Below are positions 4,389 to 9,714 of a stretch of 64,000 bases of DNA, in pieces. A program made the translations under genes and the position numbers. The notes under the pieces are model-generated. The model ran no database searches. It was not told the DNA's origin and saw nothing but the letters and a program-made list of their open reading frames with translations. Each line of letters begins with the position of its first letter. Position 1 is the first letter of the stretch. The stretch comes from Acidobacteriota bacterium (GTDB lineage: Bacteria > Acidobacteriota > Aminicenantia > JBFLYD01), in NCBI GenBank assembly GCA_040756905.1, contig JBFLYD010000009.1, forward strand, positions 4,854-68,853. Direction: 5' to 3'.

Positions 4389-4814
4389 ATTATTCATTTT
4401 ATTCAGTTTTGTATTTCTATTTTTTTATTTTTTCATCGTTTGCCTTACTTGTGACCCATTTTTACCTCACAAAAACATGATGCAATTTTCTTCTACATCT
4501 ATTAATTATTTTAAAAATATTTCTTTTCTGCTAAATTCCCTAAATTTATAGATATTGAGAAGGATTTTTCTATTCTTTTAAAAGCATATGAATATGCACA
4601 AAATTCCTATAATTTCTTATAAATTAAAGCTCAGATTATCAACAAAGTCTGTGGGTGCCTGAAAAATAAAGTTGTATTCAAAAATTATATTTTAGAGAGA
4701 ATATTGGAAAATGTTCTTCGCATTGCCAAATTCGGCGAAGAGAATTTTAATGATAGTGTTGCATCTAATAGCGTAAGATATTATCCCCGGCTTATTTTTA
4801 ATTCTTTAATTATA

Positions 4815-5369
4815 TCATCTCAACCTTTTTAATACCGCTTTTTGGATTACGGAAAATCTGTCTTTAGCCATAAAATCTTTGTATAAACTTTCTGTTAAGG
4901 AGCCTTCTGGATAATTGGTTTTCTCTTGTATAGCCATAAGCTCTGTCACGACAAGCAGGAATTCTACAGAAAATTCTCCCACTTTATCTAATTCTTTGAA
5001 TGGTTCGATATGCTCTGCTTTGAAAAACTGAAGGCTTGGTGGAAATGAATTTACAGGTTTTATTTGACTGAGCATTGCCAAGATATGGTCTTTAAGTTTC
5101 AAAGTTAATAAAGAACTATGAGCATGTTTGACATACATCTCTACAATTAAGTGAACATGAGCGGGGGTGCGTTCTCGTTTGTTTGGCTCTTGGAATTTTA
5201 CAATGAAATCGTAAGGGGATTCTGACTTTCTGCCAGGGTAAACTGCAATTTTAATATTTGTTTTTGTAGTATAAACGACTTCATCTTCTTGAAAGCGTCT
5301 AACTCTCCAAATTTTATAAGATGACTTTATGTAATAGTAAATTGCTACCAATAATTTAAATAATTTCAA
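4815..5369 (-). CDS. Hypothetical protein, last gene of the methyltransferase cassette; candidate nuclease.
   Basis: 184-aa ORF whose start overlaps the upstream stop by 4 nt. Possible PD-(D/E)xK-like pattern PYDFIV...HLIVEMYVKH. No firm family recognised. Confidence 0.4.
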   Translation of the reverse strand: MKLFKLLVAIYYYIKSSYKIWRVRRFQEDEVVYTTKTNIKIAVYPGRKSESPYDFIVKFQEPNKRERTPAHVHLIVEMYVKHAHSSLLTLKLKDHILAMLSQIKPVNSFPPSLQFFKAEHIEPFKELDKVGEFSVEFLLVVTELMAIQEKTNYPEGSLTESLYKDFMAKDRFSVIQKAVLKRLR

Positions 5370-5566
5370 TATTTTACCTCCTCTTGTACGGATGAGGGTG
5401 GACAGACCTCAATTTCTGCTCCACATTCATAACAAAACTCGACATTAAAAGTCATGCTACCAGGAATAGGGCACTCATCTAAGTCAATTCGAGATTTACA
5501 TACAGGGCATCTAATATACCATGTACCATTCTTCCTTTCTTTTGCCTTTGCTTTTCTTACTCTCAT
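5366..5566 (-). CDS. Small 4-Cys zinc-ribbon protein.
   Basis: 66 aa with CPVC...C...CYEC...C. Translationally coupled (4-nt overlaps) between the methyltransferase and the 184-aa ORF. Confidence 0.45.
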   Translation of the reverse strand: MRVRKAKAKERKNGTWYIRCPVCKSRIDLDECPIPGSMTFNVEFCYECGAEIEVCPPSSVQEEVKY

Positions 5567-7164
5567 TTTACCACCTCATAAATAAGTAGATATTGATGTG
5601 TTATTTTCAAATTATTATCTTTTTCTACTTCTTTGATTTCATTATCAGTTTTTTGTTCTTCTTGAGCTACAACTACAATTTCTTTTAACCATAAATTGTC
5701 AGAGACGATTAGATCTACTATTCTTTTGCCAAGAGGTTCAATAAATCCATCCATTCTTACATCCTGCGTTTGGACTACTAAAAATCCACCTTTGTTAACA
5801 TTAGGTAAGCTTTGTATCACGGTCTGTCTTATTTCTTCTAAATAGTGCTCAATGTTTGGCTTTAAAGGGTTATTGTTCAAAAATGTTGCTTTTATAAAAA
5901 GCAGGTCTATCTTCTTTTTCCCATCTTCTTTAGTAAAAGATGCCTGATTTTCAAAATTGACATTAAAATTTATAGTTGAGTATTTACCTCCAATTGAATA
6001 CCTATTAATTACATTTTTGTTTAAACGCTCTTCCAAATCTCTCTCAGGAAATAGCCATACCGTGGTAGTTTCAAGTTCATCTATTTTTTTCAAGGGTATT
6101 TTTTCAAATGCAGGAATAACACCTCCATAATCTAAGCTCTCTTCTCTTAAGGCTAAGGAGGGGGCAAGTGACTCGGGTTTTTCAAAAATTGGTAGATATT
6201 CGTGGGCCAAAAGGAGGAAATTATATTTTGTGCTTTTTTCATACCAAAATCCAGTAGTTTTACAATTATGCTGGCGTTTAATCACCAATTCCCTTATTTT
6301 AAACCCTGCTTCTAAAAAAACATTTATTGTTTGAAATCCTATGGGAATAACATGTTTATGTTTTCTGGTATCTCCGATAAGAATTGCGCATTTTCCGCTA
6401 GGTTTAAGGACACGGTAACTTTCACTTGCAACTTTTTTTATCTCCTTTAAAAAATCTTTAACACCAAGCTTTGATAAGTCACCTTCAACGCTAGAACTAT
6501 AATTAATGATTCCTGCATAAGGAGGGTGAGCACAAATAAGGTCAATACTATTATCTGATATATGAGAGAGAGACCTTGCATCACTTACTGAAACATCGGG
6601 TTCATAGATGGAGAAAGGAAATAGTGTTGTTGGAGGTGAAAATTTTAAATTTTCTAAGGTTAAACCTATACATGCTGGGTTGATGTCTCTAGCTATGCAT
6701 CTTCTACCAAGTAACTTCGCCTCTACTGCTGTAGTTCCACCTCCGACGAAATAATCCAAAACAATATCTCCAGGTTTTGAATATTTCAAGATTACATTCC
6801 TTGGTATGTACGGCGCCCAGTTTCCTCTATATCTTCCATCATGCGTTGCCCAATCTCCTCTTTGTTTAAAACTCCAAACAGTTGTAGTATCTTCTCTAAA
6901 ATTTTTAGGTTCCCAATATTTTATCTTCCTGAGTTTTGTGAGAACCGAAATATTGATTCCATATGCTTCGGTGATAATTTCTTCCAGTTGTCTGAAAGTA
7001 ATTCCAAACAATGTGCCAATTTCTGGATCTGGTATTCCTTTCTCTTTCGCCTTCAATACTGATTCCTTAAATTCTTTTTCACTATGTTGAGAACGTATAT
7101 GCTCCCCTAAATTTCCATAATGCGGCTTCTTGCATATAGGACATTCGCTTGTTAATTTTTGCAT
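5563..7164 (-). CDS. DNA methyltransferase of the N6-adenine/N4-cytosine family (PF01555-like) with an N-terminal zinc finger, an HTH region and a C-terminal degenerate methyltransferase-like module.
   Basis: The AdoMet motif VLDYFVGGGTTAVEAKLLGRRCIARDINP (FxGxG) is preceded by TTTVWSF...NWAPYIP. A catalytic-type IDLICAHPPYAG (xPPY) motif and VLKPSGKCAILIGD follow. The N-terminus carries a CPICKKPHYGNLGEHIRSQH C2H2-like finger. Confidence 0.75.
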   Translation of the reverse strand: MQKLTSECPICKKPHYGNLGEHIRSQHSEKEFKESVLKAKEKGIPDPEIGTLFGITFRQLEEIITEAYGINISVLTKLRKIKYWEPKNFREDTTTVWSFKQRGDWATHDGRYRGNWAPYIPRNVILKYSKPGDIVLDYFVGGGTTAVEAKLLGRRCIARDINPACIGLTLENLKFSPPTTLFPFSIYEPDVSVSDARSLSHISDNSIDLICAHPPYAGIINYSSSVEGDLSKLGVKDFLKEIKKVASESYRVLKPSGKCAILIGDTRKHKHVIPIGFQTINVFLEAGFKIRELVIKRQHNCKTTGFWYEKSTKYNFLLLAHEYLPIFEKPESLAPSLALREESLDYGGVIPAFEKIPLKKIDELETTTVWLFPERDLEERLNKNVINRYSIGGKYSTINFNVNFENQASFTKEDGKKKIDLLFIKATFLNNNPLKPNIEHYLEEIRQTVIQSLPNVNKGGFLVVQTQDVRMDGFIEPLGKRIVDLIVSDNLWLKEIVVVAQEEQKTDNEIKEVEKDNNLKITHQYLLIYEVVK

Positions 7165-7706
7165 TTTAATTATAAATATTGCGATTCTATTTAAATACTT
7201 TCATTGCTCGCTGTTTTACCCAATTTATTTATATTTAAACAATTTAGAATACATTTCTTTTTTATAAATATCCACATTAATTTTTTTACTAACTTTATCT
7301 CCCCATGCATCTTCTGCCATACCTTTTCTTTATTTTTATATAATTATTCCTGATTAAAAATCAATTTTTTCTCATTGTCGTTTTTTTAAATCTATTAGCT
7401 CTATCCTCTTTTCTTATACTAAACAGACTAATTAAAAATTAACTAGCCAGCACATTGTTTAAATCTATAGTATAATTACACTGAAGATTTATATTTTTGT
7501 TCTTATATAAATATAAAGCTCAGACATAAAATCATTGTTATAAATTTTACATAATTTTGTTGAAATTATGATAGATTGATACTAAACTCCTTAAAAAAAG
7601 AAAAAATAGTATTGAAGTGATTTTTCTATACTTTTTAAGTTCTTTTAAATTCCTTAAAATTCCTATGATTCCCTACAAATTAATCACACTCATTATGTAT
7701 ATGTCT

Positions 7707-7736
7707 TCGGGATAAAAGTAGTCCCGATATGTCGGG
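7707..7736 (-). terminator. Overlapping hairpins (tcggga-N9-tcccga and cccga-tatg-tcggg) downstream of the 7800-8315 gene; possible terminator.
   Basis: Stem-loops read directly from the sequence. On the minus strand there is only a weak U-rich segment (ACUUUUAU) after the stem. Confidence 0.3.
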
Positions 7737-7799
7737 ATTCGGGTAAATCTTCAATTTCTCTTTTATCCAATGTTAGCCACCGGCGAAATATTATTCCTA

Positions 7800-8315
7800 T
7801 CATGGCTTATTTGTTTCAATCAAAACCTTTCGATAAAGGTCATAAATAGCGTTAATTATAGGTTTCAATTCATATTTATCTCCTCTAAAAGTAAGCGCCC
7901 AAGTCGTATCTTCAAAATTACGAAGAAAATCCTCTGTATCTATTCCAGCTATCATGTTAGATAGACCAATATTTGAATCAACAAAATTATGTCTTTTAGA
8001 TGACATGATCCAAGTTTCTAATCTTTCATCAAAATGTTCAAAATGATTCCTAAAATTCCTTGGATGTATAGGAGAATTATCTTCGATACCTAAACTTTTT
8101 CTCAATTCTTCTCCCCTTTTTTGAGATTCTTTTTTTGATGGCCAAAAAATTTTAGATATATTACCAATAGCTACTAAGAAATTTTGTATCGCATACCAAA
8201 CTATATCGGAATTAATGTTTAATAATCCAGATTTTATTTCATCTATAGCAGTAATTGCAAATTTACATTGTCGCTCAATTTCTATCAGAAATATTTTTAA
8301 AACCATTTTTTCCAT
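7800..8315 (-). CDS. Hypothetical protein with a HEPN-like Rx4H motif (possible RNase, abortive-infection type).
   Basis: 171 aa. HPRNFRNHFEHFDERLE contains RNFRNH and RNHFEH, matching Rx4-6H. An isolated gene flanked by long AT-rich spacers. Confidence 0.4.
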   Translation of the reverse strand: MEKMVLKIFLIEIERQCKFAITAIDEIKSGLLNINSDIVWYAIQNFLVAIGNISKIFWPSKKESQKRGEELRKSLGIEDNSPIHPRNFRNHFEHFDERLETWIMSSKRHNFVDSNIGLSNMIAGIDTEDFLRNFEDTTWALTFRGDKYELKPIINAIYDLYRKVLIETNKP

Positions 8316-8422
8316 TTTAATTATTCCTTATTTTTCGCTATTGCATATCATGATCGGCATAAAAGAAGTTGGAAGAATTTGAGTGAGACTTTTGTGCCAT
8401 GCTAGATGCCGTTTCCGTTTAA

Positions 8423-9133
8423 CTAAAGAAGTTTTCCCAGATGCATTTCACTAGGATATTTAAATATTGGTTTAATTTTAAGTTCTAAAATAGGATGATC
8501 TGGACACGTAATTTCGATTATGCCCCCGGCACCTTGTGGCGTATCTATCTTCCCAAACGCTATGCCCTGACCATTTCCATCATAAAATTTTCCTTGGAAC
8601 TGAACGCGGTTGTCCTTAACTCTAATCTGTAAAACAATATCTCCTGTTTCATCCTTCACTTCTAAAGCATCCTTTGTAAAATTTCGATCAAATGCCTTTT
8701 CCTTTTTTATCTTCCATTCATTAGCTAGAAGTTCTGCAACCACCTCACCCTTTTTATTTCGGATTATGGTAGAAATCTTTAAATTCCCATTTTCTGTCCA
8801 GATAGTAAGACAATTATCTTCAAAGATTTTAAATAAAGGTGATCCCTCAGGGCCTCTATAGTCAAGAATTGCGCCTGAATCACCAAATTCAAATTGAGGG
8901 TATTGCTTTTCTTGCGGGTCTAATAAGATCGTTTTTGATTTATTTTCCAATTTGCCTGCATACTTTGAGATCTCTTTATCCATATATTCCTTTCTCTGAA
9001 TAACAAATTGAATAATTGCTCCTAAAATTATCAGGAATACCATAGCGATTGTGAGCCATGAAGGGATTACCCTCGGTTTAAGCCAGCCGATAATTGCAAT
9101 AATTGCCATGATTACTATTAATAAATATTTCAT
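8423..9133 (-). CDS. Membrane-anchored hypothetical protein.
   Basis: 236 aa with two N-terminal TM helices (LLIVIMAIIAIIGWL and LTIAMVFLIILGAIIQFVI) followed by a globular domain. No family recognised. Confidence 0.5.
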   Translation of the reverse strand: MKYLLIVIMAIIAIIGWLKPRVIPSWLTIAMVFLIILGAIIQFVIQRKEYMDKEISKYAGKLENKSKTILLDPQEKQYPQFEFGDSGAILDYRGPEGSPLFKIFEDNCLTIWTENGNLKISTIIRNKKGEVVAELLANEWKIKKEKAFDRNFTKDALEVKDETGDIVLQIRVKDNRVQFQGKFYDGNGQGIAFGKIDTPQGAGGIIEITCPDHPILELKIKPIFKYPSEMHLGKLL

Positions 9134-9641
9134 CTTGAACTCTTCATTTTTAGGAAATAGCTTTATCTGGGTTTATATTCGAAGTGGTTCAAACATTCCT
9201 CCATTTTTGTGTTATATCCGAATTACTTTGAACAAACATTATGTCTCTCCCTTTCAAGCTATCTTTTCTTTTTTATAATATATTATTCTTTGTTAAAAAA
9301 ATCAATTTTTTTTATCATTTTTTTCAATTTCTCAACTCCGCTCTAATATGTTAAATGTAAGTATCTCTGAGTAATTGACAAAGATTGGTGAGCTAAAAGT
9401 TTTTTTACACATCCTTAGAAATTAAATTTCCTAAAATACAGTGCGGCTTCAATATAACTTTGTATATAAGGAGAAATTTCATTTATATATTTTTGATTAC
9501 TTTGTTATTTTGGAGATGGTATTGTCCTTACATACTAAAAGACCTCCTATTATCCTCCTATTTAAACACGTTGTTTTGAAAATATTTTAAAACGACAATG
9601 ATAAAATAAGCATAATTTTACTTGGTTGAAAAAATATTAAG

Positions 9642-9714
9642 TGGAGCTGAGGGGATTTGAACCCCCGACCTCATGACTGCCAGTCATGCGCGCTCCCAGC
9701 TGCGCTACAGCCCC
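9642..9714 (-). tRNA. tRNA-Ala (anticodon GGC).
   Basis: The reverse complement GGGGCTGTAGCGCAGCTGGGAGCGCGCATGACTGGCAGTCATGAGGTCGGGGGTTCAAATCCCCTCAGCTCCA folds by hand into a cloverleaf. Acceptor 7 bp, D-arm GCGC/GCGC, anticodon stem CATGA/TCATG with loop CTGGCAG, T-arm GGGGG/CCCCT with TTCAAAT. The G3:U70 Ala identity pair is present. CCA is not encoded. Confidence 0.9.

What the first reader, a model, noticed from the sequence alone, without database searches (positions are those of the whole stretch)
7800..8315. Orphan HEPN-like (Rx4H) ORF isolated by long AT-rich spacers
HPRNFRNHFEHFDERLE contains two overlapping Rx4H arrangements (RNFRNH and RNHFEH), the catalytic signature of HEPN RNases (Abi, toxin and Cas13-type). 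The gene has no visible partner such as an MNT antitoxin and sits between about 640 bp and about 110 bp of non-coding DNA. A small hairpin cluster lies just downstream (7707-7736). It may be an abortive-infection RNase, or there may be an unannotated small antitoxin or sRNA in the spacers.
Basis: partly seen in the sequence, partly recalled or inferred. Interest (0 to 1): 0.5.

Follow-up and report, generated by a model that had tools for sequence, protein, structure and literature searches.

The report
HEPN-like gene in fossil integron cassette

Summary

The new result concerns the flanks. The window's clade is carried on integron gene cassettes. A covariance model built only from relatives' attC sites finds two significant sites in 64 kb, 7697-7778 and 8343-8407, bracketing the ORF. 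Both have lost the R' box, and the window holds no integrase, so these are fossil cassettes. No partner gene or conserved small RNA was found.

Best reading: a solitary cassette-borne HEPN-like RNase toxin or abortive-infection gene. This is a new variant of a known kind, of moderate interest.

The parts
7800..8315 (-). Protein-coding gene, 171 aa, of an unannotated family with a HEPN-like signature. It is the cargo of a fossil integron cassette.
   Evidence: ORF. More than 371 close homologues and 3,067 representative clusters. dN/dS is 0.14-0.22 against relatives. AF2 model has pLDDT 90.6.
8025..8051 (-). Codons for R89-N90-H91-F92-E93-H94-F95-D96-E97, the conserved RNxxEHxDE signature and candidate catalytic site.
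   Evidence: R89, N90, E93, H94 and D96 are invariant in A1 and at least 90% conserved in A2. E93 and D96 are invariant in A6 and A9, where R89, H94 and E97 are at least 90% conserved. In the better model the motif sits in helix 87-93 with a break at H94.
7697..7778 (-). Degenerate attC site at the 3' end of the cassette. R'' is GGCTAAC, L'' is GGATAAAAG and L' is CTTTTATCC. The R' box is lost (CATATAC in place of GTTRRRY).
   Evidence: Covariance model R1, built only from relatives' attC sites, scores 34 bits, E 4.3e-6. This is the best hit in the 64-kb window. Alignment to relatives' attCs. Folding.
7722..7737 (-). Inner hairpin TCCCGA-CATA-TCGGGA followed by CTACTTTTAT. It is the variable centre of the attC remnant and may double as an intrinsic terminator.
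   Evidence: Terminator-like pattern: 1 found against 0.5 +/- 0.7 in shuffles. It lies within the attC match.
8343..8407 (-). Second degenerate attC site. It belongs to the upstream cassette and marks the 5' boundary of the HEPN-like cassette. The R' box has decayed to GATATGC.
   Evidence: Model R1 scores 21.9 bits, E 0.0044, the second-best hit in the window. The next hit has E 4.8. Alignment.
8325..8329 (-). Shine-Dalgarno-like AAGGA, 9 nt upstream of the ATG, inside the short 5' leader conserved with relatives (GACAGCGAAAAATAAGGAGG).
   Evidence: Sequence and alignment of upstream flanks.
8423..9133 (-). Upstream ORF, 236 aa with N-terminal membrane helices and no family match. It is probably the cargo of a neighbouring fossil cassette and a likely source of read-through transcription.
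   Evidence: ORF. Only sub-threshold Pfam matches. It is followed by the attC remnant 8343-8407.
9641..9714 (-). tRNA-Ala(GGC) flanking the two-cassette remnant.
   Evidence: ARAGORN. Rfam tRNA 66.7 bits.
7619..7683 (+). One copy of a 65-nt direct repeat (the other is at 4563-4627). The pair brackets the restriction-modification-like module 4815-7164 and accounts for part of the long 'spacer'.
   Evidence: the repeat finder family D1, 74% identity.

Best explanation
The ORF encodes a functional member of a large, widely transferred and so far unannotated protein family. The fold is a helical bundle plus a small beta-hairpin subdomain. It carries a near-invariant R-N-x-x-E-H-x-D-E signature just after the third helix.

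The gene entered this Acidobacteriota genome as a promoterless integron gene cassette: a 32-nt leader, the ORF and an attC site. It sits next to a second cassette near tRNA-Ala. Both attC sites have since lost their R' boxes and no integrase is present, so the cassette is now immobile (shown).

Most likely the protein acts as a solitary, probably dimeric, metal-independent HEPN-type endoribonuclease. R89, N90 and H94 would form the active site, kept in check until a trigger such as phage infection. Its effect would be abortive-infection defence or growth arrest, as for other single-gene HEPN cassettes (inferred).

Its transcription here probably depends on read-through from the upstream cassette gene (inferred).
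For: Gene reality:
- More than 371 homologues at 53-81% identity and 3,067 clusters at E<=1e-3.
- 258 species in GTDB representatives, including archaea.
- dN/dS 0.14-0.22.

Motif:
- R89, N90, E93, H94 and D96 are invariant or at least 90% conserved in three independent alignments, down to 20-30% identity.
- RNx3H is the canonical HEPN form according to PMC3710099 and is rare by chance: 1 of 54 long ORFs here.

Structure:
- The AF2 model has pLDDT 90.6, with helices 3-32, 36-57, 62-75, 87-93/95-104 and 150-168 plus a 4-strand beta unit.
- In lactococcal AbiV the motif 91-RNHKSKH-97 likewise lies in a flexible segment after helix 3, with a beta-hairpin downstream.
- One UniRef entry for a family member is named 'AbiV family abortive infection protein'.

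Cassette:
- Nucleotide identity to relatives from other phyla (75-84%) ends about 30 nt upstream and 30-65 nt downstream of the ORF.
- Relatives carry GTTAGGC about 32 nt before the ATG, and an R''-L''...L'-R' palindrome after the stop with compensatory L''/L' changes.
- CM R1 finds further same-strand sites forming arrays in L001, L004, L006, L020, L021 and L022.
- L031 has at least 10 attC sites.
- L004 has a tyrosine-recombinase fragment directly upstream whose best PDB match is IntI4.
- In the window, R1 hits exactly the two sites flanking the ORF.

Defence association:
- A neighbouring type II methyltransferase in the window.
- AbiJ-like and Mrr_cat/ATPase genes next to the Petrotoga copy.
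- A LA2681-HEPN gene, a polymorphic toxin and a PD-(D/E)XK gene on the Alteromonas plasmid.
- Prophage-borne copies.
- Literature showing integron cassettes are enriched in single-gene defence systems, including AbiV and the HEPN-like Esos.
Against: - No sequence-profile method links the family to any HEPN family or any known family.
- hhalign against single LA2681 and AbiJ sequences gave nothing.
- The motif lies in a short helix after the third helix, not clearly at the end of bundle helix 3 as in textbook HEPN.
- E93 and D96 are even more conserved than R and H, and they persist in a homologue that has lost R, N and H (L014). The segment may therefore be partly structural, or may bind a metal.
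- Most distant family members are not in recognisable cassettes. R' and R'' boxes are only modestly enriched over all 90 loci: 13/90 against 4.4% expected, and 10/90 against 5.6%.
- No activity, toxicity or defence data exist for any member that I could find.
Confidence: 0.55

Rival explanations
1. The gene is cassette cargo of unknown, non-HEPN function. The protein would be a helical-bundle enzyme or binding protein whose RNxxEHxDE segment serves another chemistry, for example metal or nucleotide binding through E93, H94 and D96, or serves mainly a structural role. The resemblance to Rx4H would be coincidental.
For: - No profile or fold search gives a significant HEPN link.
- E93 and D96 are the only strictly invariant motif residues in the widest alignments, and they survive where R, N and H are lost.
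- The extra beta subdomain carries conserved D113 and R132 and is not a canonical HEPN feature.
Against: - R89, N90 and H94 are conserved in at least 90% of very diverse members, with the polar residue after R exactly as in HEPN.
- The match covering most residues is a HEPN protein that is also integron-borne.
- AbiV shows that HEPN motifs can sit in flexible non-helical segments with a beta-hairpin nearby.
Confidence: 0.3
2. [quoted passage not shown]
For: - AbiV needs an RNA (abiV2) that inhibits it, and it binds a small hairpin RNA.
- A structured hairpin region lies immediately 3' of the ORF.
- One family member carries a UniRef 'AbiV family' name.
Against: - No match to Pfam or PADLOC models, AbiV included.
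- Relatives have only about 100-130 nt downstream, and this is accounted for by attC. Nothing beyond the attC is conserved.
- No tandem repeats or Rfam family were found in the spacers.
- The remainder of the 635-bp gap is a direct-repeat copy plus the upstream region of the methyltransferase.
- The attC sequence varies freely between relatives while the protein stays at 75-80% identity.
Confidence: 0.07
3. The gene is the toxin half of a HEPN-MNT type II toxin-antitoxin pair whose nucleotidyltransferase partner was lost or lies elsewhere in the genome.
For: Small HEPN proteins are most often paired with MNT (PMC3710099).
Against: - No MNT or any conserved neighbour appears in about 20 independent genomic contexts.
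- The cassette has room for one gene only.
- No match to HEPN (PF05168) or DUF86 models.
Confidence: 0.03
4. The ORF is a chance open reading frame or a decaying pseudogene in AT-rich intergenic DNA.
For: The flanking recombination sites have decayed, the locus has no integrase, and the region is AT-rich.
Against: The ORF is full length, with every conserved residue intact. dN/dS is 0.14-0.22. There is a good SD sequence. The AF2 model is high-confidence.
Confidence: 0.02

Closest known systems
Integron-cassette HEPN family (Vpc_cass2, PDB 3JRT; Anantharaman et al. 2013, PMC3710099; Sureshan et al. 2013, PMC3548836)
Lactococcal AbiV (HEPN_AbiV; bioRxiv 10.1101/2024.05.05.592566)
   Same: It is a small single protein (201 aa) with an RNH... 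motif at almost the same position: 91-RNHKSKH-97 against 89-RNHFEH-94. The motif lies in a flexible segment after helix 3, with a beta-hairpin downstream. AbiV is common in integron cassettes. A UniRef entry for one family member uses the AbiV name.
Esos and other single-gene defence cassettes of sedentary chromosomal integrons (Darracq et al., bioRxiv 10.1101/2024.07.02.601686)
   Same: These are single-ORF integron cassettes. Esos has only a HEPN-like domain and shows a growth-arrest or abortive phenotype. The context is promoterless cassette arrays.
   Different: Those systems come from Vibrio arrays with an active integrase. The window copy is a degenerate two-cassette remnant without an integrase in an Acidobacteriota MAG.
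CALIN (clusters of attC sites lacking an integron integrase) and solitary cassettes
   Same: There are two same-strand attC-class sites, each following one ORF, with no integrase within 64 kb.
   Different: Both sites have lost the R' box, so they would probably fail IntegronFinder criteria and are unlikely to recombine.
HEPN-MNT toxin-antitoxin modules
   Same: A small protein with an RNx3H signature and a helical bundle.
   Different: There is no MNT partner in any context and no match to the HEPN or DUF86 models.

Membership tests
HEPN superfamily | Conserved Rx4-6H motif with a polar residue (N/D/H) immediately after R | tested here: met
   R89-N90-x3-H94 is invariant in 41 close homologues and at least 90% conserved in 58 diverse representatives. 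R89 and H94 stay at least 90% conserved in wider alignments down to about 20% identity, where N90 is sometimes D. The definition is taken from PMC3710099.
HEPN superfamily | Up-down four-helix bundle core with the motif at the C-terminal end of helix 3 or the start of the following loop | tested here: inconclusive
   AF2 models (pLDDT 87 and 90.6) give a bundle of helices 3-32, 36-57, 62-75 and 150-168. The motif lies in a separate short helix 87-93, broken at H94. Coordinates could not be inspected, so the spatial position relative to the bundle is unknown.
HEPN superfamily | Significant profile or structural similarity to an established HEPN family | tested here: inconclusive
HEPN superfamily | Homodimer juxtaposing two Rx4-6H motifs; metal-independent RNase activity | not testable with these tools
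   There is no multimer prediction and no biochemistry.
AbiV family (Pfam HEPN_AbiV / PADLOC AbiV) | Match to the family HMM | tested here: not met
   No AbiV hit for the window protein, 41 close members, 13 diverse members or the consensus sequence at E<=10.
AbiV family (type III TA-like) | Adjacent non-coding RNA antitoxin (abiV2) | tested here: not met
   Flank conservation ends at the attC. There is no Rfam hit apart from the tRNA gene at 9642-9714, and there are no repeats. Expression could not be tested.
Integron gene cassette | attC site 3' of the ORF with R''(RYYYAAC)-L''...L'-R'(GTTRRRY) imperfect palindrome | tested here: met
   Intact in relatives L001, L022 and L031, and near-intact in L020 and L021. 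The window copy 7697-7778 keeps R'', L'' and L' but not R'. CM R1, built without window sequences, scores it 34 bits, E 4.3e-6. The feature is therefore met for the clade and degenerate in the window.
Integron gene cassette | 5' boundary at the R' core (G|TTRRRY) of the preceding site; short leader; single ORF; no own promoter | tested here: met
   GTTAGGC lies about 32 nt upstream of the ATG in L001, L020 and L022 (GTTAAGC in L004). The window has the decayed form GATATGC inside the attC remnant 8343-8407. Homology with relatives begins there.
Integron gene cassette | Occurrence in same-orientation arrays of cassettes | tested here: met
   Multiple same-strand attC hits in L001 (2), L004 (4), L006 (3), L020 (2), L021 (2) and L022 (3 at E<0.001, plus two weak ones). 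L031 has at least 10. The window has 2.
Integron (complete) | Integron integrase (IntI) adjacent to the array | tested here: not met
   The window has no relative of the L004 recombinase in 64 kb (tblastn). In relative L004 a truncated tyrosine recombinase lies directly upstream, and its best PDB match is IntI4 (2A3V, E 1.4e-17). The IntI-specific insertion could not be checked.
HEPN-MNT toxin-antitoxin | Adjacent minimal nucleotidyltransferase gene | tested here: not met
   None in the window or in any relative's neighbourhood.

The most novel reading that the evidence does not exclude
This family would be a previously unrecognised single-protein HEPN-like RNase toxin or antiphage system. It is one of the more widespread unannotated ones: over 3,000 clusters at 50% identity, in bacteria, archaea, plasmids and prophages. 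One clade would be shuttled between distant phyla, and apparently across the bacteria-archaea divide, at 75-80% protein identity on cassettes that share one distinctive attC class with a conserved CCCAAAT core. That would imply a common integron recombination system operating across thermophilic and anaerobic lineages.
Probability: 0.3. Interest if true: 0.65.

Novelty: new variant of a known kind. Interest (0 to 1): 0.5.

Why it matters
If the HEPN reading holds, this adds a large, taxonomically very broad family to the set of solitary RNase toxins and abortive-infection genes. Current defence-finder tools (PADLOC, Pfam, NCBIfam) miss it completely.

The locus also shows how integron cassettes end up as "orphan genes between odd spacers" in genomes without integrons. 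That is useful for annotating MAGs from poorly studied phyla.

The shared attC class in Thermotogota, Stahlbacteria, TA06, Acidobacteriota and an archaeal MAG gives a concrete, testable case of cross-phylum, possibly cross-domain, cassette traffic.

It is not a new principle. HEPN toxins, defence cassettes in integrons and attC remnants are all known.

Tried and rejected
- Family libraries. Pfam, PADLOC, NCBIfam and PHROGs scans found nothing. I scanned the protein, 41 close members, 13 diverse members, the family consensus and six remote plasmid homologues.
- PDB sequence-profile searches with three alignments returned only chance hits: FADD, FliM and AsnRS.
- Fusion partners. Longer homologues carry no informative domains and are probably gene-call artefacts.
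- A second homologue search seeded with remote members, to reach annotated relatives, returned only 'hypothetical' proteins with no Pfam domain.
- hhalign of the family against single LA2681-HEPN and AbiJ sequences gave no signal. This test is too weak to count against HEPN.
- The supplement of the HEPN paper (PMC3710099) is held only as an HTML pointer, so no alignments were available.
- The AFDB Foldseek library was unavailable.
- A simple regex-plus-folding attC finder was poorly calibrated: 6/91 downstream windows against 23/546 controls. I replaced it with a covariance model.
- The strict R'/R'' box count over all 90 loci shows only modest enrichment. I therefore do not claim that the whole family is cassette-borne.
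- The conserved-neighbour hypothesis (antitoxin, MNT) is rejected after inspecting about 20 contexts.
- The small-RNA hypothesis for the spacers is rejected on present evidence.

Full report

The window has an ATG-initiated ORF at 7800-8315 on the minus strand. It encodes 171 aa and contains ...SPIHPRNFRNHFEHFDERLETW.... The neighbouring same-strand ORFs are a 533-aa DNA methyltransferase (5563-7164) and a 236-aa membrane protein (8423-9133). The gaps are therefore 635 bp and 107 bp.

A 6-bp hairpin, TCCCGA-CATA-TCGGGA, followed by CTACTTTTAT, lies at 7722-7737(-). It was the only terminator-like site in 7100-8500.

An Rx4H motif alone means little. In this window 12 of 54 ORFs of at least 150 aa carry one, whereas RNx3H occurs in only one. 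The region is 27-38% GC throughout, so the spacers are barely more AT-rich than the genes.

**2. The gene and its family**

The exact protein is on record as a hypothetical protein of an Acidobacteriota MAG. It has more than 371 close homologues at 53-81% identity, from Petrotoga, candidate division TA06, LCP-89, Phorcysia and many metagenomes.

A profile search of 1.84 billion representatives found 3,067 clusters at E<=1e-3 and 2,057 at E<=1e-10. A scan of one genome per GTDB species found 258 species encoding a relative. These span most bacterial phyla and several archaeal MAGs: Hydrothermarchaeota at 77% identity, plus Thermoplasmata, Nitrosocosmicus and Nitrososphaerales.

Relatives also occur on 12 plasmids and in 25 IMG/VR viral contigs. 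In one prophage the gene sits between a serine recombinase and the large terminase.

Against its closest relatives the window gene shows dN/dS of 0.14-0.22 at 80-84% nucleotide identity. It is a real gene under selection.

**3. What is conserved**

- In 41 close homologues E12, Q16, W40, Q44, W58, R67, R86, R89, N90, E93, H94, F95 and D96 are invariant.
- In 58 diverse representatives (33-56% identity) the positions at least 90% conserved are E12, Q16, L47, S54, W58, L71, R72, S81, R89, N90, E93, H94, D96, W102, D113 and R132.
- At 20-30% identity, E93 and D96 remain invariant and R89, H94 and E97 are at least 90% conserved.

R86 and H91 are clade-specific. One plasmid homologue (Rubrobacter, L014) has lost R, N and H but keeps E and D.

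**4. Is it HEPN?**

The motif has the canonical form, with a polar residue after R (PMC3710099). However, no sequence method connects the family to any known family.

- Pfam, PADLOC, NCBIfam and PHROGs gave nothing for the window protein, 41 close members, 13 diverse members, the consensus or six remote plasmid homologues.
- PDB sequence profiles gave only chance hits.
- A second homologue search seeded with remote members returned only unannotated proteins.

AlphaFold with 41 close sequences gave pLDDT 87, with the motif in a low-confidence coil. With a more diverse 52-sequence alignment it gave pLDDT 90.6 and pTM 0.86. That model has helices 3-32, 36-57, 62-75, 87-93, 95-104 and 150-168, and four short strands at 111-149. 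The motif is now helical, with a break at H94.

My verdict is that HEPN-superfamily membership is plausible, roughly 55-60%, and unproven.

**5. Partner genes and small RNAs**

I inspected about 20 independent contexts. No neighbour is conserved, and there is no MNT or other antitoxin candidate.

Neighbourhoods are frequently conflict-related:
- an R-M methyltransferase in the window;
- AbiJ_NTD4 and AAA/Mrr_cat genes in Petrotoga;
- a polymorphic toxin with its immunity gene, LA2681-HEPN, WYL and PD-(D/E)XK genes on an Alteromonas plasmid;
- transposases and partition genes on other plasmids.

Rfam found only tRNA-Ala(GGC) at 9641-9714.

**6. What the flanks really are**

BLASTN of the region against relatives' loci showed 75-84% nucleotide identity. 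This identity stops about 30 nt upstream of the ATG and 30-65 nt downstream of the stop, even though the hosts belong to different phyla.

Aligning the flanks revealed two features:
- a conserved GCCTAAC just after the stop codon, which is the attC R'' consensus RYYYAAC;
- GTTAGGC, which is the R' consensus GTTRRRY, about 32 nt before the ATG.

In L001 the downstream site is a textbook imperfect palindrome: GCCTAAC-A-GCGGACAT...ATGTCCGC-AGCC-GTTAGGC, 85 nt. L020, L021 and L022 have the same architecture with compensatory arm changes: GGATAAAAG with CTTTTATCC, and GGTAT with ATACC. All share a conserved central CCCAAAT.

L031, from a gammaproteobacterial MAG, carries its homologue inside an array of at least 10 attC sites of another class.

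L004 starts with a truncated tyrosine recombinase whose best PDB match is the integron integrase IntI4 (2A3V, E 1.4e-17). The HEPN-like gene follows it as the first of several small same-strand cassettes.

I built a covariance model (R1) from nine attC sites of relatives only and searched the whole 64-kb window on both strands with filters off. Exactly two sites were significant:
- 7697-7778(-), 34 bits, E 4.3e-6;
- 8343-8407(-), 21.9 bits, E 0.0044.

The next hit had E 4.8. These two sites bracket the ORF.

Searched over 91 loci, the same model found additional non-training sites, always on the gene strand. They form arrays in L001, L004, L006, L012 and L020-L022. One follows the AbiJ-like gene of Petrotoga.

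In the window both sites keep R'', L'' and L' but have lost the R' box: CATATAC and GATATGC replace GTTRRRY. No recombinase related to the L004 one exists in the window.

The locus is therefore a two-cassette fossil (membrane-protein cassette plus HEPN-like cassette) next to tRNA-Ala. The 107-bp 'spacer' is essentially the other attC remnant plus the 32-nt leader with its SD sequence.

The rest of the 635-bp gap contains one copy of a 65-nt direct repeat (7619-7683; its mate is at 4563-4627). This pair brackets the methyltransferase module. The remainder is that module's upstream region.

**7. Limits of the cassette claim**

Across all 90 non-redundant loci, strict R' and R'' boxes at the expected positions are only modestly enriched: 13/90 against 4.4% expected (p=1.6e-4), and 10/90 against 5.6% (p=0.03). 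My first crude attC finder showed no enrichment at all. The cassette lifestyle is therefore demonstrated for the window's clade and a few other members, not for the family as a whole.

**8. Mechanism**

Shown:
- a selected gene with a conserved RNxxEHxDE site;
- a helical bundle plus a beta unit;
- cassette origin with decayed attC sites;
- no partner gene.

Inferred:
- The protein is a dimeric metal-independent HEPN-type endoribonuclease.
- Its activity is latent until triggered, giving abortive infection or growth arrest. This would match AbiV and the HEPN-like cassette system Esos, consistent with integron arrays being enriched in single-gene defence systems.
- Being promoterless, it is probably transcribed by read-through from the upstream cassette gene and terminated at or near the attC hairpin.

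**9. Novelty and score**

HEPN toxins, defence cassettes and attC remnants are all known. Three things are new:
- a large family invisible to current annotation and defence-finder resources;
- its distinctive signature;
- evidence that one clade moves between distant phyla, and perhaps into archaea, on cassettes sharing one attC class.

I rate this a new variant of a known kind, with interest 0.5.

Noticed in passing
window 4563-4627 and 7619-7683: A 65-nt direct repeat (74% identity) brackets a 3-kb segment. The segment holds the 184-aa ORF (4815-5369), a 66-aa zinc-ribbon ORF (5366-5566) and the N4/N6 DNA methyltransferase (5563-7164). This suggests the R-M-like module is itself an insertion next to the cassette remnant.
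   Followed up: no
window 8423-9133 (-) and 8343-8407 (-): The upstream 236-aa ORF has N-terminal membrane helices and no family match. It is followed by its own degenerate attC site, so it looks like a second fossil cassette.
   Followed up: partly
window 9641-9714 (-); L001 5816-5906: tRNA-Ala(GGC) flanks the window's cassette pair. In relative L001 a two-cassette insertion (HEPN-like plus DUF429) begins 60 nt 3' of a tRNA-Ser gene. This hints at cassette insertion near tRNA genes.
   Followed up: partly
L006 8523-8613 and 9818-9899 (Petrotoga miotherma): The AbiJ_NTD4 gene, and a small gene before it, are each followed by an attC site of the same class (60 and 26.5 bits). The Petrotoga locus is therefore a cassette array carrying at least two HEPN-type candidates.
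   Followed up: partly
L014 4983-5531 (Rubrobacter indicoceani plasmid): This family member has lost R, N and H of the signature (GIVEKFENFD in place of RNHFEHFD) but keeps E and D. It may be an inactivated or repurposed version.
   Followed up: no
L101 3986-4498 (IMG/VR prophage contig): A homologue (43% identity) sits with a serine recombinase between the small- and large-terminase genes of a prophage, like a moron insertion.
   Followed up: partly
L020 (MAG labelled Candidatus Hydrothermarchaeota) 4891-5621: A 77%-identical copy is flanked by two attC sites of the same class as in the bacterial relatives. This is either cross-domain cassette transfer or a mis-binned contig.
   Followed up: no
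L004 1-498: A contig-truncated tyrosine recombinase has the integron integrase IntI4 (2A3V) as its best PDB match. It lies on the same strand directly upstream of the HEPN-like cassette, the arrangement expected of an 'inverted-integrase' integron.
   Followed up: partly
window 7330-7370 and 9265-9311: Similar AT-rich stretches (AAAAATCAATTTTTT, TTTCTTTTTTATAA) recur about 100-200 nt upstream of both the methyltransferase gene and the membrane-protein gene. They may be related promoter regions.
   Followed up: no
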